From: a virus
Lineage: Duplodnaviria; Heunggongvirae; Uroviricota; Caudoviricetes
Length of the DNA: 64,000 bases
Virus record (IMG/VR): IMGVR_UViG_651703075_000001
Coordinates: 1-64,000 of that record
Strand: one strand, 5' to 3'
A program made the position numbers and the translations under genes. Of this stretch, positions 44,984 through 60,006 are shown one piece after another. A model generated the notes under the pieces. It was not told where the DNA came from. It saw nothing but the letters and a program-made list of their open reading frames with translations, and did not search any database. The stretch's first letter is position 1. The number at the start of each line of letters is the position of its first letter.

Positions 44984-45012
44984 TTGACATTGCTTACAGG
45001 GGCAGGCATACT
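44984..45012 (+). promoter_or_regulatory. sigma70-like promoter TTGACA-N17-CATACT
   Basis: canonical -35 and 17-nt spacer, upstream of 45039 gene. Confidence 0.5.
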
Positions 45013-45038
45013 GTCCCTATTTCAACCGGGAGGTAAAG

Positions 45039-45593
45039 ATGAACGATCAAAACTACGATTTTCATGCAGAGGGGAAATTCCCCGCCCATTGCGACGAACG
45101 GGCTGAACGCTTCTTCTCTCTGGTTTTCGTAGGGAAGAGCGTCAAGGGTGCGGATAAGTACGGCTACACCTACAGTTGGAACTCCCGCCACGCCGACCTT
45201 CAACCTACTTCCACCCTTCAACAGCGCGGGGCCCACTCCTGCTCCTTCTGTGGTCGTGCTGCTCTACCTGTCCAGAACAGAGGGGATCGATTTGCAGGGT
45301 ACGACTACTCCGTCGAGGGGTACACCTGCATCTGCTCCGGCGCCATGGACGAGCTTGACTGGATTGTTCAGGCCCAGAGGATGAAGAAACGTCACCAGGA
45401 GGAAGTGGAAGAGATGTTGCTTCAACGTCCGGTACCTCCAAAAGATGTCCGCCAGGAGCTGACAAAAAATCGTCTGATGAGGTTGCTTTCTGACGTGGAG
45501 AATAGTAACCTTGTCTCCGCAATGAGGCTCCTGGAGATAACCTCCAACCGCCCCTCAGTATGGAACGAAAGCTATGAACACTTGGGCAGCTAA
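45039..45593 (+). CDS. hypothetical protein (Cys-containing)
   Basis: 184 aa, RBS gggaggtaaag. Confidence 0.5.
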   Translation: MNDQNYDFHAEGKFPAHCDERAERFFSLVFVGKSVKGADKYGYTYSWNSRHADLQPTSTLQQRGAHSCSFCGRAALPVQNRGDRFAGYDYSVEGYTCICSGAMDELDWIVQAQRMKKRHQEEVEEMLLQRPVPPKDVRQELTKNRLMRLLSDVENSNLVSAMRLLEITSNRPSVWNESYEHLGS

Positions 45594-45606
45594 ACGCCAG
45601 GAAGAG

Positions 45607-45747
45607 ATGGTAGCCTGCGGGTACTCTTTCAAAAAGCACGAAGATGGGTATTGGGAGTGCCGGGACGAAGAGGGCACCCTCATCGAGACTCACCGCCAAC
45701 TGGGCAAACTGATTTCACTGATGGCCAGCTCCCTGGGCATCGATTAG
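45607..45747 (+). CDS. hypothetical small protein
   Basis: 46 aa, fills the gap between genes, RBS aggaag. Confidence 0.3.
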   Translation: MVACGYSFKKHEDGYWECRDEEGTLIETHRQLGKLISLMASSLGID

Positions 45748-45756
45748 GAGGATTCC

Positions 45757-46077
45757 ATGCAAGACCTGTATAGCCAACACCGTGCCGCTGTCAAGAAACT
45801 CCTCCAAGAGGGGCGAAAGCTGAAGGCGACCTACGTCATGACCCTCTACATGGAGGGTTCCAGCCCGAAGGATGAAGACCCTATGGTAGCCCACCTCACG
45901 TTGGGTAAAACCTATGATGTTATCACAGACGGCCTGTACAAGGATGGTTCCTTCTACGTGGTGGACGATGAGGGCTGGGATCACCTGTTTACCCTGGATA
46001 TCCTGCCCGAAGAAGATGGATGCCCACGGTTCGATGTGTTCGATCACTTTGTGTTTAATGTGGAGGGTCCTCTCTGA
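45757..46077 (+). CDS. hypothetical protein
   Basis: 106 aa, RBS ttaggagga. Confidence 0.5.
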   Translation: MQDLYSQHRAAVKKLLQEGRKLKATYVMTLYMEGSSPKDEDPMVAHLTLGKTYDVITDGLYKDGSFYVVDDEGWDHLFTLDILPEEDGCPRFDVFDHFVFNVEGPL

Positions 46078-46244
46078 TGTACGAGATTCAGTTGATCAAC
46101 GACTGCAACGGTTGCACTGCTACTCTACAGGTTGCCGATGAAGAGGCAGCTCTGGATTTGATGGAGGAGATGGAGTATGCCTGGACCCGCTATGGCAGTG
46201 ATTGGATGCCGTCTTGGTTAGGGTTTAATCCGAAACTCTCTTGA
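46077..46244 (+). CDS. hypothetical small acidic protein
   Basis: 55 aa, TGATG overlap, stop overlaps the -35 of next promoter. Confidence 0.35.
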   Translation: MYEIQLINDCNGCTATLQVADEEAALDLMEEMEYAWTRYGSDWMPSWLGFNPKLS

Positions 46245-46269
46245 CAACACCGGAGGGCTCTTATACACT
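46241..46269 (+). promoter_or_regulatory. sigma70-like promoter TTGACA-N17-TACACT
   Basis: consensus -35, 17-nt spacer, upstream of 46297 gene. Confidence 0.5.
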
Positions 46270-46296
46270 GAGCCCTCAACCACCTTTGGAGGATTT

Positions 46297-46794
46297 ATGA
46301 ACACTGCTCAAACCATCGCAGACATCCTGATTCACCTCGCTGACCGTCTGTACACTCAGAAGGGTCGATGCCTCATCGACGGGCGCTGCAACTATGTAGA
46401 TGGCCAGGGAAATCACTGTGCTGTTGGGCACCTCCTAAGCTCCCAGTCGTGGGAGTTCGCTTCCAAGTGCCACGGCGGCGTGCCATCCCTGGAGAACGAC
46501 TGGGCGCGGCGTAAAGATGGAAGTGTGGAGACTCTCTATGACGAGAAGTTCTTCATCGCAGACATCGGTGTTCGCCGCCGTCTGTTGGACTCTTTGCAGT
46601 TCTACCATGATGAGCCGTCTATGTACTGGACAGTGGCTAAAAGCCCGTCATTCTCAAAGGTAAGCCTCCTGTTGTCTATGGTGGATTTCCTGAACACTCA
46701 AGGCCTGGACTTTGTTGAGCGCCCCCAATCTAGTGTTAAGGGTTTCTGGTCGGAAGCTAAAGGAATTCTTCGCAATCGGGGGTACCACGTATGA
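46297..46794 (+). CDS. hypothetical protein
   Basis: 165 aa, RBS tttggagga. Confidence 0.5.
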   Translation: MNTAQTIADILIHLADRLYTQKGRCLIDGRCNYVDGQGNHCAVGHLLSSQSWEFASKCHGGVPSLENDWARRKDGSVETLYDEKFFIADIGVRRRLLDSLQFYHDEPSMYWTVAKSPSFSKVSLLLSMVDFLNTQGLDFVERPQSSVKGFWSEAKGILRNRGYHV

Positions 46795-47270
46795 ACAAGG
46801 CTCTCCTTCTGAAAGACCAGTTGGCAGCAGCCCTACGATGTGAAGACCATACCCTGCAAGGTGTTGTCAGTTCTATCGTGTTCGGCCCTACCCAGGGGCT
46901 TGATCATAACGGTATTGCGATCCGTGGGCCGGGGCTTCTAAGTGATCACCGGGAACTGGTACAGCGAGCCGACAGGGTATGGATGAACATCGCCTACCGT
47001 CGAGAAGGTTTGCTAGTCAACATGAATGGCTTTACCCGGTCTGTGGTAGATGTGTTTATTCTCAAAGACAGGTATCACGGGCTGACAGGGTTGAGGTCCG
47101 TGGGTGTGGGTGAGGGATGGGCAAATGCCCTGGCCATCGACTGTGCCCTGCTGAAGAAGCAGTTCGAAGTTATTGTCGAAATCCCTTACCAGTACGAGGG
47201 GTGGGCAACCGACCTGGTACGGGCAGGTGAGATTCCTGAAGGTGTGACCATCATGTCCTCGGGGGTGTAG
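46791..47270 (+). CDS. hypothetical protein
   Basis: 159 aa, ATGA overlap. Confidence 0.5.
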   Translation: MNKALLLKDQLAAALRCEDHTLQGVVSSIVFGPTQGLDHNGIAIRGPGLLSDHRELVQRADRVWMNIAYRREGLLVNMNGFTRSVVDVFILKDRYHGLTGLRSVGVGEGWANALAIDCALLKKQFEVIVEIPYQYEGWATDLVRAGEIPEGVTIMSSGV

Positions 47271-47345
47271 ATATTTGAGGGGCTGGGGATATTTGCTCTA
47301 GATATTTGGGTGGCCCCCTATTTCGAGCTAGATATTTGAAGGGGC
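47268..47345 (+). repeat. direct repeats CTAGATATTTG(A/G)(A/G)GGG x3 (plus partial GATATTTG copy), ~30-nt period
   Basis: copies at ~47268, 47298, 47328 in intergenic DNA. Confidence 0.7.
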
Positions 47346-47440
47346 CTCCCAGCCTCGCTATCACATTTTAAGCCGGCCCCTGACTCACGGCCTAGGTTAG
47401 GGGAGAAATCGTCTCCTAGGCCCATCAGAGGAGCTTACAA

Positions 47441-47653
47441 GTGCATATCAACATCACGCTTACAGTCGGTCCTGAGATTCGTTGTAAGAAGTGCGACTCC
47501 CCCACCCCTGCCCGGGATATCGTAGAAGGCCTCTGCCCTTCCTGCCGGACACTCAAGGCCTGGGAGGCGCTTGGGCAGGCTGCTCAAGAGCTGTGGGCTT
47601 CCACTTTCAAGAGCGTCAAGATCGATTCCGTTCGGCTTGAGCAAGGTACCTGA
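47441..47653 (+). CDS. small Zn-ribbon protein (candidate DNA-binding regulator)
   Basis: 70 aa from GTG with RBS gaggag; CKKC...CPSC; flanked on both sides by direct-repeat arrays. Confidence 0.4.
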   Translation: MHINITLTVGPEIRCKKCDSPTPARDIVEGLCPSCRTLKAWEALGQAAQELWASTFKSVKIDSVRLEQGT

Positions 47654-47730
47654 CAGATTTTCACAGCCGGGCGTAAGGTACTCGACAGATTTTCACCGAG
47701 CGCCCAAGGTACTCGACAGATTTTTACAGA
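47644..47730 (+). repeat. direct repeats AAGGTACYYGACAGATTTT(T)YACMG x3, 31-nt period
   Basis: three 24-nt copies starting at ~47644, 47675, 47706. Confidence 0.75.
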
Positions 47731-47790
47731 GACAGGTATCAAAAGAACTGTCAAGTTTCCCTCCCCAGGCGGCCCGACCCCTCGGCCTCT

Positions 47791-47830
47791 TGTAGCACGT
47801 CAACTCCCCGCTGTAGCACGTCACTTCCCC
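47791..47830 (+). repeat. direct repeat TGTAGCACGTCA(A/C)(C/T)TCCCC x2
   Basis: two 19-nt copies 21 nt apart in the same non-coding region. Confidence 0.65.
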
Positions 47831-48098
47831 GGTAAGTAGCTCCCTATCTATCCCTCCCTCACCGAAACTACCTTTCACATGCAATCTCCATGCCAACCTT
47901 GAAAAGCGCGCAGGGGCGGTGTTTGTCTCCGGCGCCCGGCCCCTCCGGCCTGCTTTCCCGCATGCCTCCAGAATGCCAGGATGAGCCTGGAGTGTCAAGC
48001 CTTGTGCCAGGATTTTTCATCGCCGACCTGGCATGTTCCTTGCTACGCTTGCGCGTTCCTCTACCTGGCGTTGCCAGAGCAATTTCTTAAAAAGGGGG

Positions 48099-48126
48099 TT
48101 GACTTCTAACCGTGCCACCGTAGAAT
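48099..48126 (+). promoter_or_regulatory. early promoter TTGACT-N16-TAGAATGACC
   Basis: member of the TAGAATGGCC promoter family with conserved CAAGCAAGGCAAAC leader. Confidence 0.55.
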
Positions 48127-48165
48127 GACCCTCAAGCAAGGCAAACAACCTGTAGGAAGGTAACC

Positions 48166-48435
48166 ATGCAAAAAGCTCTCTGCAATCAACGTGACCTGTA
48201 CGCTGCCTATAACCGTGGTGAGTATGACCGCGTGGCCGTAGACCTGAATCGGTACTTCCCCATTGAGCGGGATAATCAGTGGGAAGATGGAGATGCGAAC
48301 CTGCGTCGTCGCACCTATCTGGTGAAGCACTCGAAGGGCGTGGCCAGGTGGCACACTCTCTATCGTAATGGTCAGGTTCACGGCGTCGGCGTTATCTTCG
48401 ACGTAAAGCCGGACGAACCCTTCCGAACTGCCTGA
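48166..48435 (+). CDS. hypothetical protein
   Basis: 89 aa, RBS ggaaggtaacc. Confidence 0.45.
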   Translation: MQKALCNQRDLYAAYNRGEYDRVAVDLNRYFPIERDNQWEDGDANLRRRTYLVKHSKGVARWHTLYRNGQVHGVGVIFDVKPDEPFRTA

Positions 48436-48446
48436 GGAGAGACAAG

Positions 48447-48680
48447 ATGCCTGTCAAAATAGGGGATATAGTAGCCATCCGGGGCGACCTTCGGAAAAAG
48501 CTCGACGGAACGTGTCAGTACCTGCCCGAACAGTTGGTAGGTGGTAAGTTCCTCAAGCATGCCGGCACGGGAGAAATATGGACTGGCCGAGTGAGTAAGA
48601 TACGAGGTGATATGGCCAAGGTGGGAGGTGCATGGCGCGGGATCGAATTCTATGTTCCGGTTGACGAAATAAACGCTTGA
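48447..48680 (+). CDS. hypothetical protein
   Basis: 77 aa, RBS tgaggagag. Confidence 0.45.
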   Translation: MPVKIGDIVAIRGDLRKKLDGTCQYLPEQLVGGKFLKHAGTGEIWTGRVSKIRGDMAKVGGAWRGIEFYVPVDEINA

Positions 48681-48706
48681 CAACCTGATGCACTAGCAGC
48701 ACAATA
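48677..48706 (+). promoter_or_regulatory. promoter TTGACA-N17-CACAAT
   Basis: -35 overlaps stop of upstream gene. Confidence 0.45.
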
Positions 48707-48738
48707 GCACCCACAAACCCCGACAGAGGTAACACACG

Positions 48739-48942
48739 ATGCAAATTCATTTCTCCTCCCGTACCGCAGCCCGTGCTTTCGTGAAGGGCTCTTCCGTTCC
48801 TCGCCAGGTAACCGATAACGGCGCGGAAGCTTCCCGCCGCTGGGGAGTCAAGCTGAATATCTCCCCCAGCGTCCGAGTGCTGGGCTGCGAATACCTCGCC
48901 TTTGGCAAGGCTGGCAATGCGGTGCCTGTATACGTCAAGTAA
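48739..48942 (+). CDS. hypothetical protein
   Basis: 67 aa. Confidence 0.4.
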   Translation: MQIHFSSRTAARAFVKGSSVPRQVTDNGAEASRRWGVKLNISPSVRVLGCEYLAFGKAGNAVPVYVK

Positions 48943-49017
48943 CAGCAGAGTGCTTTTAGGGCTGCCCCTGGACGCCGGGGGCAGCTTGCCTAAATCCACT
49001 CCGTAGGAGATAACACG

Positions 49018-49566
49018 ATGAACACTGTTCAAAAAACCGTCCTGGCTTTCGTTCTGACCACTCCCCTGTCCCTGGCTGCTGGCGCCATGATCGGCAAGGC
49101 CGTTGCCCTCCCTCCCGCACTGAAAGCTCAAGCTGTCAGCCTGGAGATGGCGCATGCCAAGGACCTGGCAGACAATTACGTTCCCAAAATGAACATCATC
49201 CATACCGCTACAGGTGCTATCGAGCTGGGCCAGGTGTACGGGGACCGCCTGGCGGGCGAGGTTAAAATGATCGTTAAGGGCAAAGTGCTGGCCAGTACGC
49301 ACATTAACGGTCGCAGCGTTCAGCAAGCCCTGGAGGAGGCAGCAGGTGGCACTATCGAAGATCGCGTGCTGAATAAGGATGTCACTTTCCGAATCACCAT
49401 GGATCGCCTGTACCAGTCCGAAAACTTCCCGCAGTTCACAGTAGTGATGCTGAACTCCTCTGTCTATGGCAAAGACGGTGACAGCCTAACCGCACTGGCT
49501 GCCCGCCTGGAAAAACAGCGCCTGGCCACGGTGAAGTTGTTCGAAGAAACCCGAATCCTGAAATAA
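49018..49566 (+). CDS. secreted/periplasmic protein
   Basis: 182 aa; N-terminal signal peptide KTVLAFVLTTPLSLAAGAMIG. Confidence 0.5.
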   Translation: MNTVQKTVLAFVLTTPLSLAAGAMIGKAVALPPALKAQAVSLEMAHAKDLADNYVPKMNIIHTATGAIELGQVYGDRLAGEVKMIVKGKVLASTHINGRSVQQALEEAAGGTIEDRVLNKDVTFRITMDRLYQSENFPQFTVVMLNSSVYGKDGDSLTALAARLEKQRLATVKLFEETRILK

Positions 49567-49570
49567 AGTG

Positions 49571-49598
49571 TTGACACGGCATCTCGTGTCTGTAGAAT
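49571..49598 (+). promoter_or_regulatory. early promoter TTGACA-N16-TAGAATAGGC
   Basis: family consensus. Confidence 0.55.
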
Positions 49599-49646
49599 AG
49601 GCATCACAGAGGGGGACGGTCCCCCTCCTCCTAAAAGGATATCAGC

Positions 49647-50045
49647 ATGACCACTCTCGACCCTAAAGAACTGGCACGTCAAGGCATGATCAAGGAAGCT
49701 GTTCAAGCTTTCAAAGATATGGGCGTAGATTCTCCCTGGAATGCCGAGAATGTGGCAACATTCCGAAACTACGATGTCACCCTGGGCGAGGTGGACTTGT
49801 CCGAAGAGGAGTTCGTGGAAGAGTTGGATTCCATCCACGAAGGGGTTAAGATAGCCAACATCTCTTTCTCTGCCGGCCAAGTGCTGCTAAAAATGGACCC
49901 CATAGCTTTCCGTTGCGCATGCGGGGAGTATGAGTCTCAATTGACCGAGGAGTTGGAGGAGGCGCTGCGAGTCGAAGACGACGATTGTATCGAATTCTTC
50001 ATCGACCCCATCGATTGGGAAGCGGTTGAAGAAGAGGAAGAATAA
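49647..50045 (+). CDS. highly acidic protein (candidate DNA mimic / anti-restriction-like)
   Basis: 132 aa, Asp/Glu-rich throughout, C-terminal EEEEE. Confidence 0.45.
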   Translation: MTTLDPKELARQGMIKEAVQAFKDMGVDSPWNAENVATFRNYDVTLGEVDLSEEEFVEELDSIHEGVKIANISFSAGQVLLKMDPIAFRCACGEYESQLTEELEEALRVEDDDCIEFFIDPIDWEAVEEEEE

Positions 50046-50048
50046 GGG

Positions 50049-50077
50049 TTGACAAGGGGCCAGGAAACTCATAAACT
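50049..50077 (+). promoter_or_regulatory. promoter TTGACA-N17-TAAACT
   Basis: consensus -35, 17-nt spacer. Confidence 0.45.
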
Positions 50078-50111
50078 GGCCCCAACACCAACGCACTGAG
50101 GGTAACACAAC

Positions 50112-51251: not shown

Positions 51252-51266
51252 AAGATCAAAAAGGGC

Positions 51267-51295
51267 TTGACGTGCGCAACGGGTGGCCCTAGTAT
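51267..51295 (+). promoter_or_regulatory. promoter TTGACG-N17-TAGTAT
   Basis: good -10, 17-nt spacer. Confidence 0.5.
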
Positions 51296-51339
51296 CTCTC
51301 TCAGAAACACAACCCCTTACTTACAAGGTAGATCGAAAC

Positions 51340-52122: not shown

Positions 52123-52151
52123 CAGCCCCGCTCATGCGGGGCTTTTGTTTG
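52123..52151 (+). terminator. rho-independent terminator (AGCCCCGCTCATGCGGGGCT + TTTGTTT)
   Basis: GC hairpin + T tract. Confidence 0.7.
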
Positions 52152-52165
52152 CCTGAAATAAAGTG

Positions 52166-52193
52166 TTGACACTATAGGCCCTTCCTGTAGAAT
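52166..52193 (+). promoter_or_regulatory. early promoter TTGACA-N16-TAGAATGGCC
   Basis: family consensus. Confidence 0.6.
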
Positions 52194-52242
52194 GGCCGCC
52201 ATACACAAGGAAAATGTTCCACAACATCCTCTGGAGATAATC

Positions 52243-52479: not shown

Positions 52480-52557
52480 CCGCTCGCAAATCTCCTTTAC
52501 CAGCCCGGCTGTGCCGGGCTTCACAGTAAAACCGCAGGCAGAGCAGAATCCCGGGGC

Positions 52558-52585
52558 TTGACACCAGCGATAGCCCCGGTAGAAT
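52558..52585 (+). promoter_or_regulatory. early promoter TTGACA-N16-TAGAATAGCC
   Basis: family consensus with CATCAAGCAAGACAAAC leader. Confidence 0.6.
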
Positions 52586-52623
52586 AGCCATCAAGCAAGA
52601 CAAACTCACCTGGAGAAAGCAAA

Positions 52624-53980: not shown

Positions 53981-54009
53981 TTGACAAGACCCTTTTGGGT
54001 TTGTAAGAT
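53981..54009 (+). promoter_or_regulatory. promoter TTGACA-N17-TAAGAT
   Basis: consensus -35, 17-nt spacer. Confidence 0.5.
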
Positions 54010-54061
54010 GCGTGTCAAAGGGAAGGCATAAAGCCTTCCCGCTTCAGGAAGGTGAACAGGA

Positions 54062-54311: not shown

Positions 54312-54339
54312 TTGACTTCCCTCCCGCTTCCCGTAGAAT
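54312..54339 (+). promoter_or_regulatory. early promoter TTGACT-N16-TAGAATAGGC
   Basis: family consensus. Confidence 0.55.
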
Positions 54340-54373
54340 AGGCTTCAAAGGGCAAGGGCCCTCTTTCATAAAG

Positions 54374-54922: not shown

Positions 54923-54950
54923 TTGACAGCTTAGGCCATTCGAGTAGAAT
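54923..54950 (+). promoter_or_regulatory. early promoter TTGACA-N16-TAGAATGGCC
   Basis: family consensus with CAAGCAAGACAAAC leader. Confidence 0.6.
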
Positions 54951-54999
54951 GGCCCCAAGCAAGACAAACCACCAACAGGCAAACCCAAGGAACTAAATC

Positions 55000-55506: not shown

Positions 55507-55628
55507 TGCTTCGCGTGTGCTACAAGTGTCTACATGTTGGGTATCCTGTTAGAACCCTAAGCCGGAAAACCAAGGTCTGGTACCTAGGCTGCCCCCTCTG
55601 CCGTTCTGGAGTCTTCTTTTCCTGAACC

Positions 55629-55657
55629 CAAGCCCCCAATCCGGGGGCTTTCTTTTT
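55629..55657 (+). terminator. rho-independent terminator (AGCCCCCAATCCGGGGGCT + TTCTTTTTT)
   Basis: GC hairpin + long T tract. Confidence 0.75.
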
Positions 55658-55668
55658 TCCTAAAGGGC

Positions 55669-55696
55669 TTGACCTGGCCCCCTCTTCCTGTAGAAT
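55669..55696 (+). promoter_or_regulatory. early promoter TTGACC-N16-TAGAATGCGC
   Basis: family consensus. Confidence 0.55.
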
Positions 55697-55716
55697 GCGC
55701 ATCAAAGGGAAGCACA

Positions 55717-55956
55717 ATGCTCCCCAGGCATGAGACAAGACCCATGAGCCAGATCAAGATTCAAGAGTACATTATCGCAGAGGTCAAGGTTAACCATTGT
55801 GCCCACCTGCGCAAGGGCCAGACCATCCAAGCCCGCGATGCTAGTAGCAGTGAAAAGTGGATTGCATTCATGGTGGAACGTGGGTATAGTGCCTCTGAAG
55901 CCGCTATCCTGTTCAAAGATGCACATGATGTGGCAATGCTCGAACTGGCAGCCTAA
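55717..55956 (+). CDS. hypothetical protein
   Basis: 79 aa from ATG with RBS aaggga (alt ATG 55744). Confidence 0.4.
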   Translation: MLPRHETRPMSQIKIQEYIIAEVKVNHCAHLRKGQTIQARDASSSEKWIAFMVERGYSASEAAILFKDAHDVAMLELAA

Positions 55957-55981
55957 CACTCGACCTTAATAGGAGTTACCA

Positions 55982-56371
55982 ATGTCTAATGTGACCGTTT
56001 GGACCGAAGAATTTGAAAAAGCGGCAGCGGCTGAGGGCTGGCTTATCTCTAGTACGTTCTCTGAATCAAGCCCCTACGAAGTGCAGGCGATAGATAACCC
56101 GGAAGCCTACAGCATGGATAAGGGGGTCCCCTGCCCTCCTCGTTTGTCGGGTGACCGTGCCGCATGGGCGTTGTTCCTCTCTGGCAAAGAACCCCATCAC
56201 AGTGCGGCCCGCAGCTTCATATCCCAGCACTCCCCTGTAGAATGGAGGCTGATACTGGAAAGCGTCTGCAAAGACTGTCAAGGGCTGGGCCGGGGAGGCC
56301 CTAACACCACGGACGGAGGGGAGCACGACGATTGCTGTTCCTGCTCTGGCACAGGTAGCTCCATTCTCTGA
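55982..56371 (+). CDS. hypothetical protein with DnaJ-type zinc-finger repeats (CxxCxGxG)
   Basis: 129 aa; CKDCQGLG and CCSCSGTG motifs near C-terminus. Confidence 0.45.
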   Translation: MSNVTVWTEEFEKAAAAEGWLISSTFSESSPYEVQAIDNPEAYSMDKGVPCPPRLSGDRAAWALFLSGKEPHHSAARSFISQHSPVEWRLILESVCKDCQGLGRGGPNTTDGGEHDDCCSCSGTGSSIL

Positions 56372-56378
56372 AAAACAT

Positions 56379-56408
56379 CTTGACGGGGGTCCCTGGCTTC
56401 GGCATAAT
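56379..56408 (+). promoter_or_regulatory. promoter TTGACG-N18-CATAATGACC
   Basis: family-like -10 and CAAGCAAACAAAC leader; spacer contains inverted repeat GGGGGTC/GACCCCC. Confidence 0.5.
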
Positions 56409-56443
56409 GACCCCCGTCAAGCAAACAAACCCCGGAGATTCCC

Positions 56444-56959
56444 ATGAACACCTTCGCATACGCCCACTACGTCGCCCGCATGGACAAGGCCTCGGGTTCG
56501 AGCCTTCCCTACTCCACCCTGTTCCGCATTGCCCTTCGTAACGCCTACCGCAAGCCTGGCGTCCGCCAATATGATTACACTGCCCTCGCCGAGGATGTCA
56601 AAGGCCTCGAACTGGCCCAAAAGCGCACCCGTGCTGAAAAGGCTGTCGTGATGGCTGCGGTAATGCGAGGGATTCGCATGGGCTTCACCGTGAGCGTGAA
56701 AGACGGCAGCGATGGCGAATGGGTGGTTCGTCAGTCTACCGATGTCAAGGAAATTTCCGACAGCCTGCAATCCACCTGTGACGATGTTATCCGATTCCGC
56801 AAAGGGTCTGGCCCTGAGAACGTTGTCGGCTCCCTGTGGGCAATCTACGGCAACAGCGCTGGCGAAGTGATCGCGGATTGGTCGGACAATGACACCATGG
56901 CTATGGTGATGGCTCCCGCAGAACGCAAGATGGAAAAATACGCTGAGATGGGGATTTAA
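56444..56959 (+). CDS. hypothetical protein
   Basis: 171 aa, RBS ccggag. Confidence 0.5.
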   Translation: MNTFAYAHYVARMDKASGSSLPYSTLFRIALRNAYRKPGVRQYDYTALAEDVKGLELAQKRTRAEKAVVMAAVMRGIRMGFTVSVKDGSDGEWVVRQSTDVKEISDSLQSTCDDVIRFRKGSGPENVVGSLWAIYGNSAGEVIADWSDNDTMAMVMAPAERKMEKYAEMGI

Positions 56960-57028
56960 TGCTTTACGGGGCCCGGCAAGGGCCCCATAATGCACCCATG
57001 CCAAACAACAGCCCTGGAGGGCAATACA

Positions 57029-57211
57029 ATGAAAACTGGATACCTGAAGAAGGACAGTCAAGAACGTTTCAACCTGAAACGGGCGTGGACAGTGAATGCA
57101 TGGCGCATCGTGGACGCCCTGGGCCGCGACATGGTTCAGCCCTGGGCAAACACAAAGACCGAGGCGCGCCAGACCGCAAAAGCTCTTGGCATCAAGCTTA
57201 TCGAGGTATAA
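57029..57211 (+). CDS. hypothetical small protein
   Basis: 60 aa from ATG with RBS ctggaggg. Confidence 0.4.
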   Translation: MKTGYLKKDSQERFNLKRAWTVNAWRIVDALGRDMVQPWANTKTEARQTAKALGIKLIEV

Positions 57212-57255
57212 TCCTCCAGCGGTAATCGCCAAGGGACGCCAAACAGGAGAAGAAA

Positions 57256-57543
57256 ATGAAGAGCAAGTATGGAAAAAACATCGCTGCGGAATATAACCTT
57301 TCCTGCCGAGTTCGCCGGATTACTTTTGAAAGCGCCCGGCGCCACCCTGACAGTCGCATTGTGAAGCTCGCAGCATCCTACGCCTGTGCTGCCTATGGCC
57401 GTCCTTACAAGGACTGTATCGGTGCCTACAAGGCCGCCAAGCGGCGAGAGAAGGCAATGCGAAACCCCGCCACATGGAAGCTCAACCGGGAAGCTAAGCG
57501 GGCCGTGCAGTGGCTACAAGCTGCCATGAACAAACGCAAATAA
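57256..57543 (+). CDS. hypothetical basic protein
   Basis: 95 aa, RBS caggagaag, Lys/Arg-rich. Confidence 0.45.
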   Translation: MKSKYGKNIAAEYNLSCRVRRITFESARRHPDSRIVKLAASYACAAYGRPYKDCIGAYKAAKRREKAMRNPATWKLNREAKRAVQWLQAAMNKRK

Positions 57544-57548
57544 AGTTG

Positions 57549-57576
57549 TTGACAGCTTAGGCCATTCCTGTAGAAT
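57549..57576 (+). promoter_or_regulatory. early promoter TTGACA-N16-TAGAATGGCC
   Basis: near-identical to 54923 promoter including AGCTTAGGCCATTC spacer. Confidence 0.6.
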
Positions 57577-57626
57577 GGCCATCAAGCAAAGGGAATCACC
57601 CTGAGCAACTGAATAGGTAAAAGACG

Positions 57627-57821
57627 ATGCAAGCAACCTACCAAGCCCTGAAAACTCTGCGCGATGCTTGTGAAGCTGTCAAGGATGAAAAAGGCACCAT
57701 CAACGGAAACAAATTGAATGCACTGCGTAACAAGGCTGTCAAGGAAATGCAAGCTGGTGGTGAAACCTACTCTGACGCCATTAGCATGGCTCACGACTTG
57801 ATTAAGAAGTATCGCAAGTAA
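57627..57821 (+). CDS. hypothetical protein
   Basis: 64 aa, RBS ggtaaaag. Confidence 0.45.
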   Translation: MQATYQALKTLRDACEAVKDEKGTINGNKLNALRNKAVKEMQAGGETYSDAISMAHDLIKKYRK

Positions 57822-57871
57822 CCGTAACCCCGGTTCGCCGGGTCATCACAGAGCATGACCGAGGAGACAAC

Positions 57872-58009
57872 ATGAATAACTCGCCTGTAGTTGTATGTCT
57901 TAAGTGCGGAGCCGTAAATGGCGGACAGAGCAAGCACAATGTTGTAGTAGCTCTGGGTAAGAAGTGGTGCGGACACTGTGGGTCTAATCTCGCAACCCTT
58001 CGTCGCTAA
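57872..58009 (+). CDS. small Zn-ribbon protein
   Basis: 45 aa, RBS gaggag, CLKC...CGHC; preceded by conserved hairpin leader. Confidence 0.3.
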   Translation: MNNSPVVVCLKCGAVNGGQSKHNVVVALGKKWCGHCGSNLATLRR

Positions 58010-58053
58010 CCCAGCCCAGCCCCGGTTCCCCGGGGCATCACCGAGGAAAGATC

Positions 58054-58215
58054 ATGAACGCCACCCTGGCACGTCTTCAGAACGAACGCTGTGCAACTCT
58101 TCGATTGATGCTGCTCCCGGAGCATCGTGGGTACAAGTTCACTGGCCACCCCTGGGCCGAGCGAATTCGCAATCTCCACGATGAAGCCCGGTGCATCCGC
58201 AGCCATCACAACTAA
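58054..58215 (+). CDS. hypothetical small protein
   Basis: 53 aa, RBS gaggaaag; preceded by second copy of the conserved hairpin leader. Confidence 0.3.
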   Translation: MNATLARLQNERCATLRLMLLPEHRGYKFTGHPWAERIRNLHDEARCIRSHHN

Positions 58216-58223
58216 CCCCCTTC

Positions 58224-58250
58224 CCAGCCCGGCACAGCCGGGCTTTCTCT
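58224..58250 (+). terminator. rho-independent terminator (AGCCCGGCACAGCCGGGCT + TTCTCT)
   Basis: GC hairpin + pyrimidine tract. Confidence 0.55.
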
Positions 58251-58263
58251 CATAGGAGGAACC

Positions 58264-58482
58264 ATGAAAGTTCAGATCGGTCAGCATACCCTGGAAGTCG
58301 TAGCTCCCGCCCATAATGTCCCCAAGAGCGACGGGTGTTGCAGTGTGCTTTTGAACGGGACACTTCTCTACGTTGGTTTCAACCCTCGTGACGCTTGGGG
58401 GCTGTTCGAAGACCTGGAGAAAGCCCTACTCAGCGTCGAAGCTCAGTCGGTAGAGTCTGAGGAGGCCTTGCATGACTGGTAA
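58264..58482 (+). CDS. hypothetical protein
   Basis: 72 aa, strong RBS taggagga. Confidence 0.5.
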   Translation: MKVQIGQHTLEVVAPAHNVPKSDGCCSVLLNGTLLYVGFNPRDAWGLFEDLEKALLSVEAQSVESEEALHDW

Positions 58483-58696
58483 CGCCCTGGGGCATTCTCC
58501 ATTCATCCCCTATGCCTCAGTGCCAGGACCTATGTTTGAATTCGAGTGGTTCGACGTAGGGAATGCCGTCATAGAGCTAGAGCCAGGATGGCTAGTAGGG
58601 GTAGGGTTTGGAGTGGATAGCTTGTTTGTACTCACCTGGGTTGAAGGGGAACCATTCGCCGAGCGGCGACCCTGGACCCCTAACCTCAGGTCATAG
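58472..58696 (+). CDS. hypothetical protein
   Basis: 74 aa, ATGA overlap. Confidence 0.4.
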   Translation: MTGNALGHSPFIPYASVPGPMFEFEWFDVGNAVIELEPGWLVGVGFGVDSLFVLTWVEGEPFAERRPWTPNLRS

Positions 58697-59976
58697 ATTC
58701 TCTGCCAGGTGGTCACAAGTTTCTATTCGGTCGCCATAATAATGACCCTGGGGAGGGTCCTACGGACCGTCACGATAACAGGGGAATTATGGCCATGTTA
58801 ACAGGGCCTATAGGCTTCGTAGAAGCCAGTTTAGCTTAGGCAGTACCCTAGTATAGGAAAGGCCTTGAAAAGGCCGTATGCGCGCCCCCAGGGGGCCTAT
58901 CGGGGAGGGAGTGGGCAAGTGCCCCCTCCCCGTGTCTAAGCCTTATCAACTGGACTCTTCGAGTCCATTCCAACAGGCTTCTACGAAGCCATATAATCAC
59001 CAGTCATAATACCAATCATGCGCAGAGCATCCGGGTAGGATGATCAAGCCATTGGTCTCTCCTCTCTGTCAAGAATTCTGTAACAATCACTAGGTCACGT
59101 CGTGACCCATTGTGTAACAGTCGGCAGACTGTCATTCGGGCAGGGGCATTTGCCCCCTTCCTGCCCTCCTAAACTAGCTGGCTTCGACGAAGCCTTCCCA
59201 TGCCACCAACCCAATTATGTAACAGCCTGGCCATGGTCATGGCCCATTGTGTAACGGCATTGCATGCCAGGATCACCAGACAGCCCCAGCCAGTCCAATT
59301 GTGTAACCATTCCCCATCCCAGCAGCAGAATATCCCCAGCCAGGAAGCCCATGACCCTCCCCATTGCATCCTAGGTGCTCAGCCCCTGGAATACGTCGAT
59401 TGTGTAACCCATGACCACCCATGCCCTAGTAGGCCTCTTCGAGGCGAGCTAATGCCGGCGTCTCTCTACCCTCACGGGAAGAGTTCCCCCTTTATTATGG
59501 CGACCGAATAGAGAATGCCCGGTTCATGCGGCCTGTAGGCCATTACAATGGCCAGCCCGGGTAAGGATTGCATTACACAATAGGCTTACCCTCACCCCTG
59601 AATTGACAGGCCTCGAAGAGGCTAGCCAGGCTCAGACAGACAGCTTGAGTTACACAATTCCCCCTCACATATTGCCCCACTCCCCATGCCACACCCCTGA
59701 CATTCAACCCCACGCCCCAGCCTCAGCAGATACATTTGCTTCGACGAAGCCTGGATATTTCCAGATCATGACGGCGCCTCATGGCCACCCTCGGGTCTTG
59801 TTAAATACCCCGGCTGCCTATCTGGAATTTCAGAATCATGATGCCCCTCCCCAGTCACACCCCCAGGCCCGTTCCCCAGGATTCCCCCAGATATATTTCC
59901 CAGGCTGGTGCCCAGGAAGGGTGCCCCCATGTACCCCTGAAATTTTGGCGGGGGTGGGTTTCTGAATTGAAAAATG
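58697..59976. repeat. 1.3 kb non-coding hub with dispersed ATTGTGTAAC repeats (both orientations) and GGCTTCG-N-CGAAGCC / GGTCACG-N-CGTGACC palindromes
   Basis: no ORF with RBS on either strand; at least 5 forward and 2 reverse copies of (A)ATTGTGTAAC; several 7-bp-arm palindromes. Confidence 0.6.
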
Positions 59977-60006
59977 TTGACAGGCCCCTGCCGGGGCTTC
60001 ACAATG
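59977..60006 (+). promoter_or_regulatory. promoter TTGACA-N17-CACAATGGCC driving the paralog array
   Basis: family-type extended -10 (AATGGCC); track ORF 59974 ATG lies inside it. Confidence 0.55.

What the first reader, a model, noticed from the sequence alone, without database searches (positions are those of the whole stretch)
44984..60006. Family of ~16 early promoters sharing a 40-nt consensus that includes the transcribed leader
The family is cTTGACa-N16/17-(G)TAGAATGGCC. Thirteen instances lie within 48.1-57.6 kb. Further sigma70-like promoters that fit loosely sit at 21969 (TACAGTGGCC), 44984 (CATACT), 46241 (TACACT) and 59977 (CACAATGGCC). Conservation extends beyond the -10 element into +1 and the leader, for example CCATCAAGCAAGACAAAC at 52590, 54955 and 57580. 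Variants occur at 48130 and 56415. The -35/-10 fit host sigma70. The conserved discriminator and leader are not explained by sigma70 alone and could be a binding site for a phage regulator, an RNA processing or stability element, or a translation enhancer.
Basis: seen in the sequence. Interest (0 to 1): 0.55.

Follow-up and report, generated by a model that had tools for sequence, protein, structure and literature searches.

The report
Known phage early promoters with built-in hairpins
These are the already published host-type early promoters of Pseudomonas phage KPP10. Much of their extra conservation comes from GC-rich hairpins built into the promoters, which appear to end upstream transcripts and serve as recombination sites, as in the promoter-terminator cassettes of T4-like phages.

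Summary
The window is Pseudomonas phage KPP10 (Nankokuvirus), genome positions 1-64000. The promoter family is real. There are 8 exact TTGAC-N17-TAGAAT sites (0 expected) and about 16 intergenic, + strand sigma70-type promoters at 45.0-60.0 kb.

It is already known. Henry et al. 2015 described the 41-nt promoter repeats. Putzeys et al. 2024 mapped transcription starts in PAK_P3, which is 97% identical; 16 of them transfer onto KPP10 promoters and one more onto 21969. The site at 46241 has no mapped start.

The "40-nt consensus" holds for only two full copies (54923, 57549). The leader AAGCAAG.CAAAC occurs in 3 copies, with looser variants at 56417 and 57584.

The conservation outside the hexamers has several sources:
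- An A-rich UP-like tract, and a YCA start 6-8 nt after the -10.
- Inverted repeats that pair the spacer with the discriminator or leader.
- Generally A/C-rich, U-poor leaders.

In PAK_P3, mapped 3' ends fall 5-10 nt after five of these hairpins. Hybrid cassettes in phages PS24 and G1 show recombination inside the promoters.

The closest analogue is the PeSL cassette of T4-like phages. I found no evidence for a regulator-binding site. The interest is low to moderate.

The parts
21969..22004 (+). Outlying sigma70-type promoter (TTGACA-N17-TACAGT, discriminator GGCCGC, start at 22004). It lies just after an intrinsic terminator.
   Evidence: One search gives the site. PAK_P3 P016 (TSS 24923) and terminator T010 (24869) are. 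Transfer to KPP10 position 22004 is.
44984..45019 (+). First early promoter (-35 at 44984, -10 CATACT at 45007-45012, start at 45019). The inverted repeat AGGGGCAG 44998-45005 / CTGTCCCT 45011-45018 brackets the -10.
   Evidence: The ortholog PAK_P3 P033 has a mapped TSS and is active in a GFP reporter. PAK_P3 3' end T020 lies 4 nt after that TSS. The arms changed on both sides between phages while keeping pairing.
46241..46277 (+). Candidate promoter (TTGACA-N17-TACACT) with inverted repeat GAGGGCTC 46253-46260 / GAGCCCTC 46270-46277. It is not supported by a mapped start.
   Evidence: It is annotated 'putative promoter_05' in the PAK_P3 record, but Table S3 lists no TSS between 48439 and 51049. 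The arms are conserved while the loop varies among relatives.
48099..48146 (+). Promoter TTGACT-N16-TAGAAT, start at 48134, with leader AAGCAAGGCAAAC.
   Evidence: (PAK_P3 P035).
48677..48713 (+). Promoter TTGACA-N17-CACAAT, start at 48713. Phages Ab11 and Ab04 carry a 537-nt insertion at +2 to +10.
   Evidence: (P036).
49571..49627 (+). Promoter TTGACA-N16-TAGAAT, start at 49606. The leader carries a 5'-proximal hairpin, GAGGGGGA...TCCCCCTC.
   Evidence: (P038).
50049..50084 (+). Promoter TTGACA-N17-TAAACT, start at 50084. The inverted repeat GGGGCCAG 50056-50063 / CTGGCCCC 50076-50083 encloses the -10.
   Evidence: z = -4.1; P039. PAK_P3 3' end T024 lies 4 nt after the TSS.
51262..51303 (+). 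Promoter TTGACG-N17-TAGTAT, start at 51303. The inverted repeat AGGGC 51262-51266 / GCCCT 51286-51290 encloses the -35 and the spacer.
   Evidence: (P040). PAK_P3 3' end T026 lies 8 nt before the TSS.
52124..52153 (+). Canonical intrinsic terminator (8-bp GC stem plus a T-run) directly upstream of the next promoter's A-rich tract.
   Evidence: The ortholog is PAK_P3 T027, classed 'intrinsic'.
52166..52201 (+). Promoter TTGACA-N16-TAGAATGGCC, start at 52201. It forms the left end of the ORF91 module that is absent from G1 and PS24.
   Evidence: (P041).
52551..52605 (+). Promoter TTGACA-N16-TAGAAT, start at 52593, with leader AAGCAAGACAAAC. The inverted repeat CCGGGGC 52551-52557 / GCCCCGG 52573-52579 encloses the -35. 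It forms the right end of the ORF91 module.
   Evidence: (P042).
53981..54041 (+). Promoter TTGACA-N17-TAAGAT, start at 54017. The leader carries the hairpin GGGAAGGC-ATAAA-GCCTTCCC from +4.
   Evidence: P043; z = -2.6.
54312..54347 (+). Promoter TTGACT-N16-TAGAAT, start at 54347, with leader AAAGGGCAAGGG.
   Evidence: (P044).
54923..54969 (+). Cassette copy 1 (the published 41-nt repeat): TTGACAGCTTAGGCCATTCgagTAGAATGGCCccAAGCAAGACAAAC, start at 54957. It contains the 8-bp inverted repeat GGCCATTC 54934-54941 / GAATGGCC 54947-54954.
   Evidence: z = -4.3; P045. The same cassette occurs 5 times in PaP1. It is the left recombination partner in PS24.
55630..55660 (+). Canonical intrinsic terminator upstream of the promoter at 55669.
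   Evidence: The ortholog is PAK_P3 T028, classed 'intrinsic'.
55669..55712 (+). Promoter TTGACC-N16-TAGAAT, start at 55704. Spacer CTTCC (55684-55688) is complementary to leader GGAAG (55708-55712).
   Evidence: (P046). A spacer change in Ab11 extends the pairing.
56379..56421 (+). Promoter TTGACG-N17-CATAAT, mapped start at 56417. The whole promoter is enclosed by a perfect 13-bp inverted repeat, CTTGACGGGGGTC / GACCCCCGTCAAG.
   Evidence: z = -4.2; P049. PAK_P3 3' end T029 lies 9 nt after the TSS. The right breakpoint of the PH826/G1 deletion lies at -1.
56963..56998 (+). Weaker promoter TTTACG-N17-CATAAT, start at 56998. The hairpin GGGGCCC 56968-56974 / GGGCCCC 56980-56986 lies in the spacer.
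   Evidence: P050. PAK_P3 3' end T030 lies 5 nt before the TSS.
57549..57596 (+). Cassette copy 2: TTGACAGCTTAGGCCATTCctgTAGAATGGCCatcAAGCAAAGGGAAT, start at 57584, with inverted repeat 57560-57567 / 57573-57580. The 66 nt around it (57535-57600) are 100% identical to PaP1, a phage of another genus.
   Evidence: z = -3.7; P051. Replacement breakpoints lie at +10 and +45.
59977..60012 (+). Promoter TTGACA-N17-CACAATGGCC, start at 60012, with inverted repeats in the spacer (GGCCCC/GGGGC) and across the -10 (GGGGC 59993-59997 / GCCCC 60007-60011).
   Evidence: P053.

Best explanation
These are the sigma70-dependent early promoters of Pseudomonas phage KPP10. Host RNA polymerase uses them directly after infection to transcribe a 15-kb block of small genes of unknown function.

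Each promoter has an A-rich UP-like tract, a near-consensus -35, a 16-17-nt spacer, a TAGAAT-like -10, a 6-8-nt GC-rich discriminator and an A start in a YCA context.

The conservation outside the two hexamers has three sources.
1. RNA polymerase contacts and start-site preference. This is inferred from general knowledge of UP elements, discriminators and Y-1/R+1 starts.
2. In about half of the promoters, a GC-rich inverted repeat has its 5' arm in the spacer (or at the -35) and its 3' arm in the discriminator or first leader bases. Transcripts that start at the promoter lack the 5' arm. Only RNA reading through from the upstream unit can fold the hairpin, and in the relative PAK_P3 mapped 3' ends accumulate 5-10 nt after it. 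The hairpin therefore most likely acts as a leaky terminator or a 3'-end protector, tiling the early transcription units end to start. The 3'-end positions are shown. Termination versus processing is inferred.
3. The near-identical 40-48-nt copies are kept alike by common descent and by recombination between copies. They serve as crossover sites that delete, insert or swap gene modules within the genus, and homologous early modules bounded by the same cassettes are shared with another genus. Hybrid junctions are shown.

Functionally this is the same design as the PeSL promoter-terminator cassettes of T4-like phages.

The leaders are generally A/C-rich and U-poor. The motif AAGCAAGACAAAC is the extreme case. 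Its specific role (promoter escape, stability or ribosome standby) remains unresolved.
For: Identity of the window: 100% match to KPP10, same numbering.

Promoters:
- Sites are far more frequent than chance.
- Seventeen PAK_P3 TSSs transfer onto the KPP10 sites.
- The reporter construct for P033 was active in both hosts.
- The block is transcribed early in PAK_P3.

Hairpins:
- Five promoters have fold z-scores from -2.7 to -4.3.
- Spacer-to-discriminator complementarity is specific to each promoter: swap-permutation p = 0.005.
- The early promoters are more structured than 23 other sigma70-type promoters of the same phage. Mean MFE is -13.1 against -8.8 kcal/mol (p = 0.016), and 7/16 against 2/23 have z < -2.
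- In eight promoters the 3' arm ends between -4 and +4 of the start.
- In PAK_P3, 5 of 12 early-region 3' ends lie within 10 nt of a TSS, against 0.33 expected (P = 1e-5), each 5-10 nt after the stem. Two more are canonical terminators about 50 nt upstream of a TSS. The transcription-unit table shows units ending at these sites with partial read-through.
- The arms differ in sequence between promoters. At the 45019 promoter, KPP10 and PAK_P3 differ by a C-G to G.U change on both sides and a G.U to A-U change. GGCCGTTC variants of the cassette keep a G.U pair.

Recombination:
- PS24 carries a hybrid cassette whose 42 nt align to both PAK_P3 cassettes, and it lacks the 2.47 kb between them.
- G1 and PS24 have one promoter where KPP10 has two flanking ORF91. 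Both junctions lie inside promoters, at -29 and -20.
- Other junctions lie at -1, +2, +6, +10, +33 and +45 of a TSS.
- The cassettes and their neighbouring modules are shared with the Pakpunavirus PaP1.

Leaders: A+C is 69% against 51% in the region, and U is 13% against 22% (p = 4e-12 and 3e-5).

PeSL anatomy matches that described by Arbiol et al. 2010.
Against: - All TSS and 3'-end data come from PAK_P3, not KPP10.
- The two best-conserved cassettes (PAK_P3 P045 and P051, with the 8-bp GGCCATTC hairpin) have no 3' end listed in PAK_P3.
- The hairpins lack U-tracts, so they are not canonical intrinsic terminators. Termination cannot be told apart from exonuclease trimming.
- Roughly half of the promoters have no convincing inverted repeat.
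- The covariation evidence rests on very few changes, and the 3' arm is partly fixed by the -10.
- Once breakpoints are required to be intergenic, they are not enriched in the cassettes: 8 of 15 against 41% expected, P = 0.24. The case for recombination therefore rests on the individual hybrid junctions.
- The early-versus-other structure comparison is only modestly significant (p = 0.016-0.05).
Confidence: 0.7

Rival explanations
1. Plain strong promoters plus recent duplication. The extra conservation would reflect only RNA polymerase preferences (UP tract, discriminator, start site) and the recent common origin of a few copies. On this view the inverted repeats are incidental products of GC-rich, GGCC-type self-complementary sequence and have no function.
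For: - Only 2-5 copies share the long consensus.
- TAGAATGGCC alone is not significantly enriched.
- About half the promoters have no strong inverted repeat.
- GGCC is self-complementary.
- Breakpoints are not enriched in cassettes once they are required to be intergenic.
Against: - Complementarity is specific to each promoter's own spacer (p = 0.005).
- The arms differ in sequence between promoters, yet their 3' ends all fall at -4 to +4.
- PAK_P3 3' ends coincide with five of the hairpins (P = 1e-5).
- Changes between relatives keep the pairing.
- The spacer GGCCATTC is conserved across two genera, although sigma70 places no sequence demand on it.
Confidence: 0.15
2. Operator for a regulator. 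The palindrome GGCCATTC-N5-GAATGGCC, and the other repeats that overlap the -10, would be binding sites for a dimeric phage or host protein that shuts early transcription off at the switch to middle genes.
For: - A perfect 8+8 palindrome overlaps the -10 in two KPP10 cassettes and at least five PaP1 cassettes, and is almost invariant across genera.
- Early transcription is temporally regulated in PAK_P3.
Against: - The repeats at other promoters have unrelated sequences, which fits a structure better than a single recognition sequence.
- The right half-site is already fixed by the -10.
- GGCCGTTC variants break DNA symmetry but keep RNA pairing.
- None of 40 early ORFs has a Pfam DNA-binding domain, although ORFans could hide one.
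Confidence: 0.1
3. The leader acts as an RNA element of the downstream transcript. The conserved +1 to +16 sequence (AAGCAAGACAAAC, or AAAGGGAAG plus a hairpin) would itself set promoter escape, mRNA stability or translation efficiency. This is compatible with the best explanation but is a separate claim.
For: - The leader motif occurs behind four different spacers in KPP10 (48134, 52593, 54957, 56417) and in a G1/PS24 hybrid with yet another spacer.
- AAGCAA plus a hairpin follows unrelated spacers in other viral contigs.
- All 16 leaders are A/C-rich and U-poor.
- Several leaders carry 5'-proximal hairpins with z about -2 to -2.6.
- PAK_P3 triggers massive RNA degradation.
Against: - Only 3 to 5 of the 16 leaders carry the motif.
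- There is no Rfam match.
- The motif is predicted to be unstructured.
- No assay was available, and recombination inside cassettes could reassort leaders without any selection.
Confidence: 0.25
4. Stringent-type control. The GC-rich discriminators would make the promoters sensitive to ppGpp/DksA or to initiating-NTP levels, coupling early expression to the host's physiological state.
For: The discriminators are GC-rich (GGCC, GACCC, GCGC) and most starts are A-A. From general knowledge, GC-rich discriminators mark stringently controlled promoters such as rrnB P1.
Against: Composition is the only evidence. The GC-rich bases are accounted for by pairing with the spacer. The second discriminator base is often G, which from general knowledge favours stable open complexes, not unstable ones.
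Confidence: 0.05

Closest known systems
[quoted passage not shown] 2015, PLoS One, PMC4309531), and the ONT-cappable-seq promoter map of PAK_P3 (Putzeys et al. 2024, microLife, PMC10914365)
   Same: This is the same element in the same phage group. Henry et al. report TTGACA-N17-TAgAAT repeats with conserved flanks, 5-6 copies in Pakpunavirus genomes and two in each KPP10-like genome, in the putative early region. Putzeys et al. report 58 sigma70-like promoters and 75 TSSs in PAK_P3, with reporter validation.
   Different: Henry et al. do not mention stem-loops, terminators or recombination. Putzeys et al. list the 3' ends, but the section I read on terminators does not discuss their coincidence with promoters. 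No direct data exist for KPP10 itself.
PeSL (promoter-early stem-loop) cassettes of T4-type phages (Arbiol et al. 2010, PMC2839356; Comeau et al. 2014, PMC4122927)
   Same: Both have a strong sigma70 early promoter, an AT-rich upstream tract, and a GC stem-loop placed between the -35 and -10 or overlapping the -10. Both are followed by the Shine-Dalgarno sequence and ATG, and both are clustered in regions of ORFan genes. In both, the stem-loop attenuates upstream transcription and the cassettes are crossover points for insertion, deletion and replacement of ORFans. Here each feature has a counterpart.
   Different: The phage family is different (Nankokuvirus, not T4-like), and I saw no sequence similarity to PeSLs. 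Only about half of the promoters carry a clear stem-loop. Terminator activity and mini-circle formation have not been tested. The resemblance is functional and does not show homology.
Strong coliphage early promoters (T5, T7 A1) with conserved regions outside the hexamers, together with UP elements and discriminator contacts of E. coli RNA polymerase (recalled from general knowledge, not checked here)
   Same: Both have an A/T-rich tract at about -40 to -50, near-consensus hexamers, and sequence similarity that extends into the first ~20 transcribed bases. In the coliphage promoters this downstream region was linked to late steps of initiation.
   Different: Those promoters are not described as containing hairpins that span the -10. 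The KPP10 leader motif is unrelated in sequence.
Intrinsic (Rho-independent) terminators
   Same: Both have a GC-rich stem with mapped 3' ends 5-10 nt downstream.
   Different: The promoter-embedded hairpins have no U-tract. Only the sites at 52124 and 55630 satisfy the canonical pattern.

Membership tests
Bacterial sigma70-type promoter | -35 and -10 hexamers close to TTGACA/TATAAT with a 16-18-nt spacer | tested here: met
   Sixteen sites score 9-11 of 12 with 16-17-nt spacers. The count is 29 sites against 8.8 in shuffles.
Bacterial sigma70-type promoter | Transcription starts 6-8 nt downstream of the -10 | tested here: met
   Published PAK_P3 5' ends were transferred by alignment. The start is the A after a 6-8-nt discriminator at 16 early sites and at 22004. 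This comes from orthologs, not from KPP10 itself. The site at 46241 has no mapped start.
Bacterial sigma70-type promoter | Activity with host RNA polymerase alone | not testable with these tools
   The literature covers one ortholog only: PAK_P3 P033 (equivalent to KPP10 44984) drove msfGFP in E. coli and P. aeruginosa.
41-nt promoter repeat of Henry et al. 2015 | Repeated TTGACA-N16/17-TAgAAT with near-perfect conservation around both hexamers, two copies per KPP10-like genome, shared with PAK_P1-like phages | tested here: met
   The copies lie at 54923-54969 and 57549-57596. The same cassette occurs 5 times in PaP1 and in 161 phage records.
PeSL composite promoter-terminator cassette | Strong sigma70 early promoter with an AT-rich tract upstream of the -35 | tested here: met
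   The consensus aaATAAAg lies at about -46 to -38. The region is early in PAK_P3.
PeSL composite promoter-terminator cassette | Stable GC stem-loop between the -35 and -10 or overlapping the -10 | tested here: met
   A clear stem-loop is present in 8-10 of 17 sites and absent from the others. Fold z-scores reach -4.3, the swap test gives p = 0.005, and the early promoters are more structured than other promoters of the phage.
PeSL composite promoter-terminator cassette | The stem-loop terminates or attenuates transcription coming from upstream | tested here: inconclusive
   PAK_P3 3' ends lie 5-10 nt after five promoter-embedded stems (P = 1e-5), with partial read-through. Termination cannot be separated from processing, and the two GGCCATTC cassettes have no listed 3' end.
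PeSL composite promoter-terminator cassette | Clustered in a variable region of small ORFan genes | tested here: met
   Of 40 ORFs at 45-62.7 kb, 39 have no Pfam match and one is a DUF. All are annotated as hypothetical. Gene content varies among 10 relatives.
PeSL composite promoter-terminator cassette | Insertion, deletion or replacement junctions between related phages lie inside the cassettes | tested here: met
   PS24 has a hybrid of the two cassettes with a 42-nt shared overlap and a 2.47-kb loss. The ORF91 module is bounded at -29 and -20 in G1 and PS24. Other junctions lie at -1 to +45. Caveat: there is no enrichment beyond what the intergenic location alone gives.
PeSL composite promoter-terminator cassette | Formation of mini-circles by recombination between neighbouring cassettes | not testable with these tools
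   This needs inverse PCR or deep sequencing of lysates.
PeSL composite promoter-terminator cassette | Found in T4-type (Straboviridae) genomes | tested here: not met
   The window is a Nankokuvirus. The claim is therefore that it works like a PeSL, not that it is homologous to one.
Intrinsic terminator | GC-rich hairpin immediately followed by a U-tract | tested here: not met
   Only 52124 and 55630 on the + strand fit. The promoter-embedded hairpins are followed by A/C-rich leaders.
Known RNA family (Rfam) | Match to a curated covariance model | tested here: not met
   There is no match at gathering score in 43-64 kb. One sub-threshold hit on the minus strand is taken as chance.

The most novel reading that the evidence does not exclude
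A PeSL-type system may have arisen independently in Nankokuvirus and Pakpunavirus. In this reading, hairpins without U-tracts are nested in the promoters so that only read-through RNA can fold them. They end or protect the upstream transcript exactly where the next one starts. The same 40-48-nt cassettes carry small early genes between phages of two genera. The U-poor, A/C-rich leaders would then be a linked adaptation that lets phage mRNAs survive the RNA degradation the phage itself triggers.
Probability: 0.4. Interest if true: 0.45.

Novelty: already known. Interest (0 to 1): 0.27.

Why it matters
The promoter repeats of KPP10-like phages were published in 2015, and the transcription starts of a 97%-identical phage were mapped in 2024.

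What may be worth a short follow-up is the link that the papers I read do not draw. About half of these promoters carry a hairpin across the -10, mapped 3' ends sit at those hairpins, and natural deletion and replacement variants have their junctions inside the cassettes.

That would extend the PeSL idea of promoter-terminator cassettes as engines of gene shuffling from T4-like phages to an unrelated group of therapeutic Pseudomonas phages. It also gives compact, portable insulator-plus-promoter parts for phage engineering, and it predicts where deletion variants will arise in phage-therapy stocks.

Tried and rejected
- The 10-mer TAGAATGGCC as a marker: not significantly enriched on its own.
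- Rfam scan of 43-64 kb at a permissive E-value: only one sub-threshold hit on the minus strand.
- Pfam scan of 40 early ORFs for a DNA-binding regulator: nothing except DUF7449 in ORF79.
- Collecting more orthologs of the 45019 promoter from IMG/VR by an exact leader pattern: only one contig. I used GenBank phage records instead.
- Breakpoint enrichment statistic: highly significant against the whole region (P = 1e-5) but not once breakpoints are required to be intergenic (P = 0.24). I therefore do not use it as evidence.
- GCTGGGCT as a second promoter or processing motif: not enriched in the window.
- Hfq/Crc-type A-rich (AAnAAnAA or ARN-repeat) reading of the leader: checked by eye, and the motif does not fit. 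This is inference, not a tool result.
- Promoter-bound RNA polymerase as a roadblock causing the 3' ends: rejected because the ends lie at -8 to +9 of the start, just after the stems, not upstream of the promoter footprint. This is also inference.
- The PMC version of Putzeys et al. holds no supplements; the bioRxiv version does. The KPP10 genome paper (Uchiyama 2012) is not held.
- The PaP1 and JG004 genome papers do not describe these promoters.

Full report
**Identity of the window.** A 10-kb query from the finding matches Pseudomonas phage KPP10 (AB472900.2 / NC_015272.2, genus Nankokuvirus) at 100% identity with the same numbering. The window is therefore KPP10 positions 1-64000. Close relatives are 97-99% identical over this stretch. 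They include PAK_P3, whose GenBank record already annotates "putative promoter_04" to "_12" here.

**Check of the observation.**
- TTGAC-N17-TAGAAT occurs 8 times exactly, all on the + strand between 48099 and 57576, against none in 100 shuffles.
- The looser N17 pattern gives 22 sites against 2.9 expected.
- The consensus scanner finds 29 promoter-like sites in 44-61 kb against 8.8 +/- 3.3.
- The promoters are intergenic, 20-45 nt upstream of annotated start codons.
- Two details are overstated. TAGAATGGCC is exact only three times and is not enriched by itself. The 18-mer CCATCAAGCAAGACAAAC is exact once, with 2-3 mismatches at two other sites.
- An alignment anchored on the start sites shows that all members share an A-rich tract at about -46 to -38, the -35, the -10 and a YCA start. 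Only two copies (54923-54969 and 57549-57596) share the whole 40-48-nt unit.

**What is already published.**
- Henry et al. 2015 (PMC4309531) reported a 41-nt repeated promoter-like sequence, TTGACA-N17-TAgAAT. They found 5-6 copies in PAK_P1-like phages and two in each KPP10-like phage, in the putative early region. They remarked on the unusual conservation around the hexamers. They do not mention stem-loops, terminators or recombination.
- Chevallereau et al. 2016 (PMC4933390) showed that PAK_P3 gp74-gp112 are the early genes.
- Putzeys et al. 2024 (PMC10914365) mapped 75 transcription starts and 43 3' ends in PAK_P3 by ONT-cappable-seq and classed 58 promoters as sigma70-like. [quoted passage not shown]
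- Their Table S3, read from the bioRxiv supplement, lists a start at each of these promoters.

**Transfer of the mapped starts to KPP10.** I transferred the PAK_P3 starts by local alignment. They land at 45019, 48134, 48713, 49606, 50084, 51303, 52201, 52593, 54017, 54347, 54957, 55704, 56417, 56998, 57584 and 60012. The outlier at 21969 starts at 22004. The start is the A that follows a 6-8-nt discriminator. Starts are downstream of the elements, and the conserved leader (+1 to +13) is distinct from the Shine-Dalgarno and ATG at +21 to +46.

**Why conservation extends beyond the hexamers.** Part of it is ordinary promoter anatomy: an UP-like A-tract, a purine start after a pyrimidine, and G-rich first discriminator bases. 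That part rests on general knowledge of RNA polymerase and was not tested here.

The new element is an inverted repeat. Folding -36 to +6 gives z-scores of -2.7 to -4.3 for five promoters.

| Start | 5' arm | Gap (nt) | 3' arm |
|---|---|---|---|
| 45019 | AGGGGCAG | 5 | CTGTCCCT |
| 50084 | GGGGCCAG | 12 | CTGGCCCC |
| 54957 and 57584 | GGCCATTC | 5 | GAATGGCC |
| 56417 | CTTGACGGGGGTC | 17 | GACCCCCGTCAAG |

- Weaker or differently placed repeats occur at 46241, 51303, 52201, 52593, 55704, 56998 and 60012.
- The arms differ in sequence from promoter to promoter. In eight cases the 3' arm ends between -4 and +4 of the start.
- Pairing each spacer with the -10/discriminator of another promoter destroys the complementarity (permutation p = 0.005).
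- These 16 promoters are more structured than 23 other sigma70-type promoters of the same phage. Mean MFE is -13.1 against -8.8 kcal/mol (p = 0.016), and 7/16 against 2/23 have z < -2.
- Because the 5' arm lies upstream of +1, only RNA that reads through from the preceding unit can form the hairpin.

**Link to 3' ends.** Table S4 of Putzeys et al. lists PAK_P3 3' ends close to several of these starts.

| PAK_P3 3' end | Position | PAK_P3 TSS | Position | Offset (nt) |
|---|---|---|---|---|
| T020 | 47943 | P033 | 47939 | +4 |
| T024 | 53146 | P039 | 53142 | +4 |
| T026 | 54353 | P040 | 54361 | -8 |
| T029 | 59378 | P049 | 59369 | +9 |
| T030 | 59945 | P050 | 59950 | -5 |

- Folding the PAK_P3 sequence shows that each end lies 5-10 nt after the embedded stem.
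- Five of 12 early-region 3' ends within 10 nt of a start compares with 0.33 expected (P = 1e-5).
- Two more 3' ends (T027, T028) are canonical terminators about 50 nt upstream of the next start. Their KPP10 counterparts at 52124 and 55630 are the only + strand terminator-like sites in the scan that correspond to a PAK_P3 terminator classed as intrinsic.
- The transcription-unit table shows units running from one promoter to the 3' end inside the next promoter, with some read-through.
- The early block is thus tiled end to start.
- Caveats apply. The data are from PAK_P3, the hairpins lack U-tracts, termination cannot be distinguished from exonuclease trimming, and the two GGCCATTC cassettes have no listed 3' end.

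**Comparative evidence for the hairpins.** I compared ten relatives: PAK_P3, Epa24, PH826, PAK_P5, PAP-JP, G1, Ab11, Ab04, CHA_P1 and PS24.
- The 121 nt around the 45019 promoter are only 79-89% identical in most relatives, against 93-98% identity for the aligned block that contains it.
- The variable part is the 5' spacer, while the stem is kept.
- KPP10 and PAK_P3 differ by a C-G to G.U change on both sides and a G.U to A-U change.
- At 46241 the loop varies while the arms are kept. At 55704 a spacer change in Ab11 extends the pairing with the leader.
- Among 57 distinct TTGACA-N16-TAGAATGGCC sites found in IMG/VR, the cassette arm varies only as GGCCATTC or GGCCGTTC, apart from one GGCCATTG copy. 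The GGCCGTTC form keeps a G.U pair in the sense RNA.
- This evidence is thin but consistently points to a sense-strand RNA structure rather than a single protein recognition sequence.

**Recombination at the cassettes.**
- PS24 aligns to PAK_P3 up to +6 of P045 and resumes at -35 of P051. Forty-two nucleotides of PS24 match both cassettes, and the 2.47 kb between them (gp100-gp105) is missing. That is a crossover inside the repeat.
- G1 and PS24 have a single promoter where KPP10 has two flanking ORF91. It carries the upstream flank of the 52201 promoter and the leader of the 52593 promoter, and the junctions lie at -29 and -20.
- Further junctions lie at -1 (PH826/G1 deletion), +2 to +10 (537-nt insertion in Ab11/Ab04), +10 and +45 (replacements after 57584) and +33 (ORF101 replacement).
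- The Pakpunavirus PaP1 carries the same cassette five times. It also shares gene-sized modules whose similarity ends at or near the promoters, including a 956-nt stretch at 94% identity.
- Ten of 21 distinct breakpoints lie within -50 to +45 of a start (P = 1e-5 against the whole region). This is not more than expected if breakpoints merely have to be intergenic (P = 0.24). I therefore rely on the individual hybrid junctions and not on the statistic.

**The leaders.** Two leader types recur. One is AAGCAAG(A/G)CAAAC (48134, 52593, 54957; a variant at 56417). The other is AAAGGGAAG-type with a 5'-proximal hairpin (54017, 54347, 55704). The 57584 leader combines AAGCAA with a hairpin.
- The AAGCAAG motif follows four different spacers, so it is not simply co-inherited with the GGCCATTC spacer.
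- All 16 leaders are A/C-rich and U-poor. A+C is 69% against 51%, U is 13% against 22%, and U is only 6% in +1 to +13.
- The motif is predicted to be unstructured and matches no Rfam family.
- Its function is open: promoter escape, avoidance of U-dependent endonuclease sites during the phage-induced RNA degradation, or a ribosome standby site.

**The regulator hypothesis.** The 8+8 palindrome over the -10 would suit a dimeric repressor. Against this, the repeats at other promoters are unrelated in sequence, the right half is already fixed by the -10, and none of the 40 ORFs from 45.0 to 62.7 kb has a Pfam DNA-binding domain. The hypothesis is not excluded, and I give it about 0.1.

**Comparison with known systems.** The anatomy matches the PeSL cassettes of T4-type phages point by point. 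[quoted passage not shown] They also show terminator/attenuator function, are clustered among ORFans, and act as crossover sites for insertions and deletions. The phage family is different, I saw no sequence similarity, and terminator activity and mini-circles are untested. This is therefore a functional analogue, not a member by descent. A full-text search found no paper linking PeSLs to Pseudomonas phages.

**Verdict.** The added value here is the explanation of the extra conservation: promoter-embedded hairpins tied to 3' ends, recombining cassettes and U-poor leaders. That makes these promoters a likely new example of a known design. Interest is low to moderate.

Noticed in passing
window 57254-58209: This 956-nt stretch (ORF102, the promoter cassette, ORF103 and beyond) is 94% identical to PaP1, a phage of another genus (Pakpunavirus). 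Other early modules are 72-92% identical. The early region is a cross-genus mosaic.
   Followed up: partly
window 58700-59970: This is an almost ORF-free 1.3-kb stretch. It holds four dispersed palindromes (A)GGCTTCGACGAAGCC(T), about five copies of ATTGTGTAAC in both orientations, a perfect 21-nt inverted repeat (58722/59492) and the palindrome GGCCATTACAATGGCC at 59538. It corresponds to the region called the predicted genome terminus in PAK_P3 and to a duplicated 754-bp repeat annotated in CHA_P1. It may be an origin or packaging region.
   Followed up: no
window 48886, 60156, 60302 (also 56041): PAK_P3 5' ends that are not sigma70-like (P037, P054, P055, P048) end in ...CTGGGCT or ...GGGCTGG. 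This recalls the CTGGG motif Putzeys et al. report near a second class of starts in phage 14-1. The 8-mer GCTGGGCT is not enriched in the window. These could be processing sites or a phage-specific promoter class.
   Followed up: partly
window 44940-45060: The 121 nt around the first early promoter are only 79-89% identical in most Nankokuviruses (100% only in PH826), against 93-98% for the aligned block that contains them. Variation is concentrated in the 5' half of the spacer.
   Followed up: partly
window: -35 elements and start sites of 48134, 52593, 54017, 56417, 57584 and others: The start context (G)TCAAG(C) is the reverse complement of the -35 context (G)CTTGA(C). Many promoters are therefore flanked by a second, outer short inverted repeat, which is perfect over 13 bp at 56379-56421. 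I could not tell whether this is functional or a by-product of the YCA-A start.
   Followed up: no
L058 (Ab11) 4844-5382, inserted at window 48715-48723: Ab11 and Ab04 carry a 537-nt insertion directly after the 48713 start. It ends in an AT-rich palindrome, TGACTGTAATATATATATATGTCAGG. The resident gene is thereby left without its own promoter.
   Followed up: no
window 48166-48435 (ORF79): This is the only early ORF with a Pfam match: DUF7449, E = 9e-58. The other 39 ORFs between 45.0 and 62.7 kb have none.
   Followed up: no
window 57654-57682, minus strand: A promoter-like site on the minus strand (TTGACA-N17-CAGAGT) faces back into the cassette at 57549. Its ortholog is annotated 'putative promoter_12' in PAK_P3, but no minus-strand start is listed there. 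PAK_P3 also has long antisense RNAs (as16, as17) across 51.1-53.7 kb of its early region.
   Followed up: no
window 45067-45123, minus strand: There is a sub-threshold Rfam hit to the xanthine riboswitch aptamer (27.4 bits against a gathering score of 36, E = 0.024). It lies inside ORF71 on the opposite strand, so I take it as chance.
   Followed up: no
IMG/VR loci L012, L028, L004, L010, L014, L023, L033, L036: Other, apparently unrelated viral contigs of 5-98 kb also use TTGACA-N16-TAGAATGGCC behind aaaataa-type tracts. Two of them (L012, L028) have an AAGCAA leader followed by a GGGG...CCCC hairpin. The design may be wider than these two genera.
   Followed up: no
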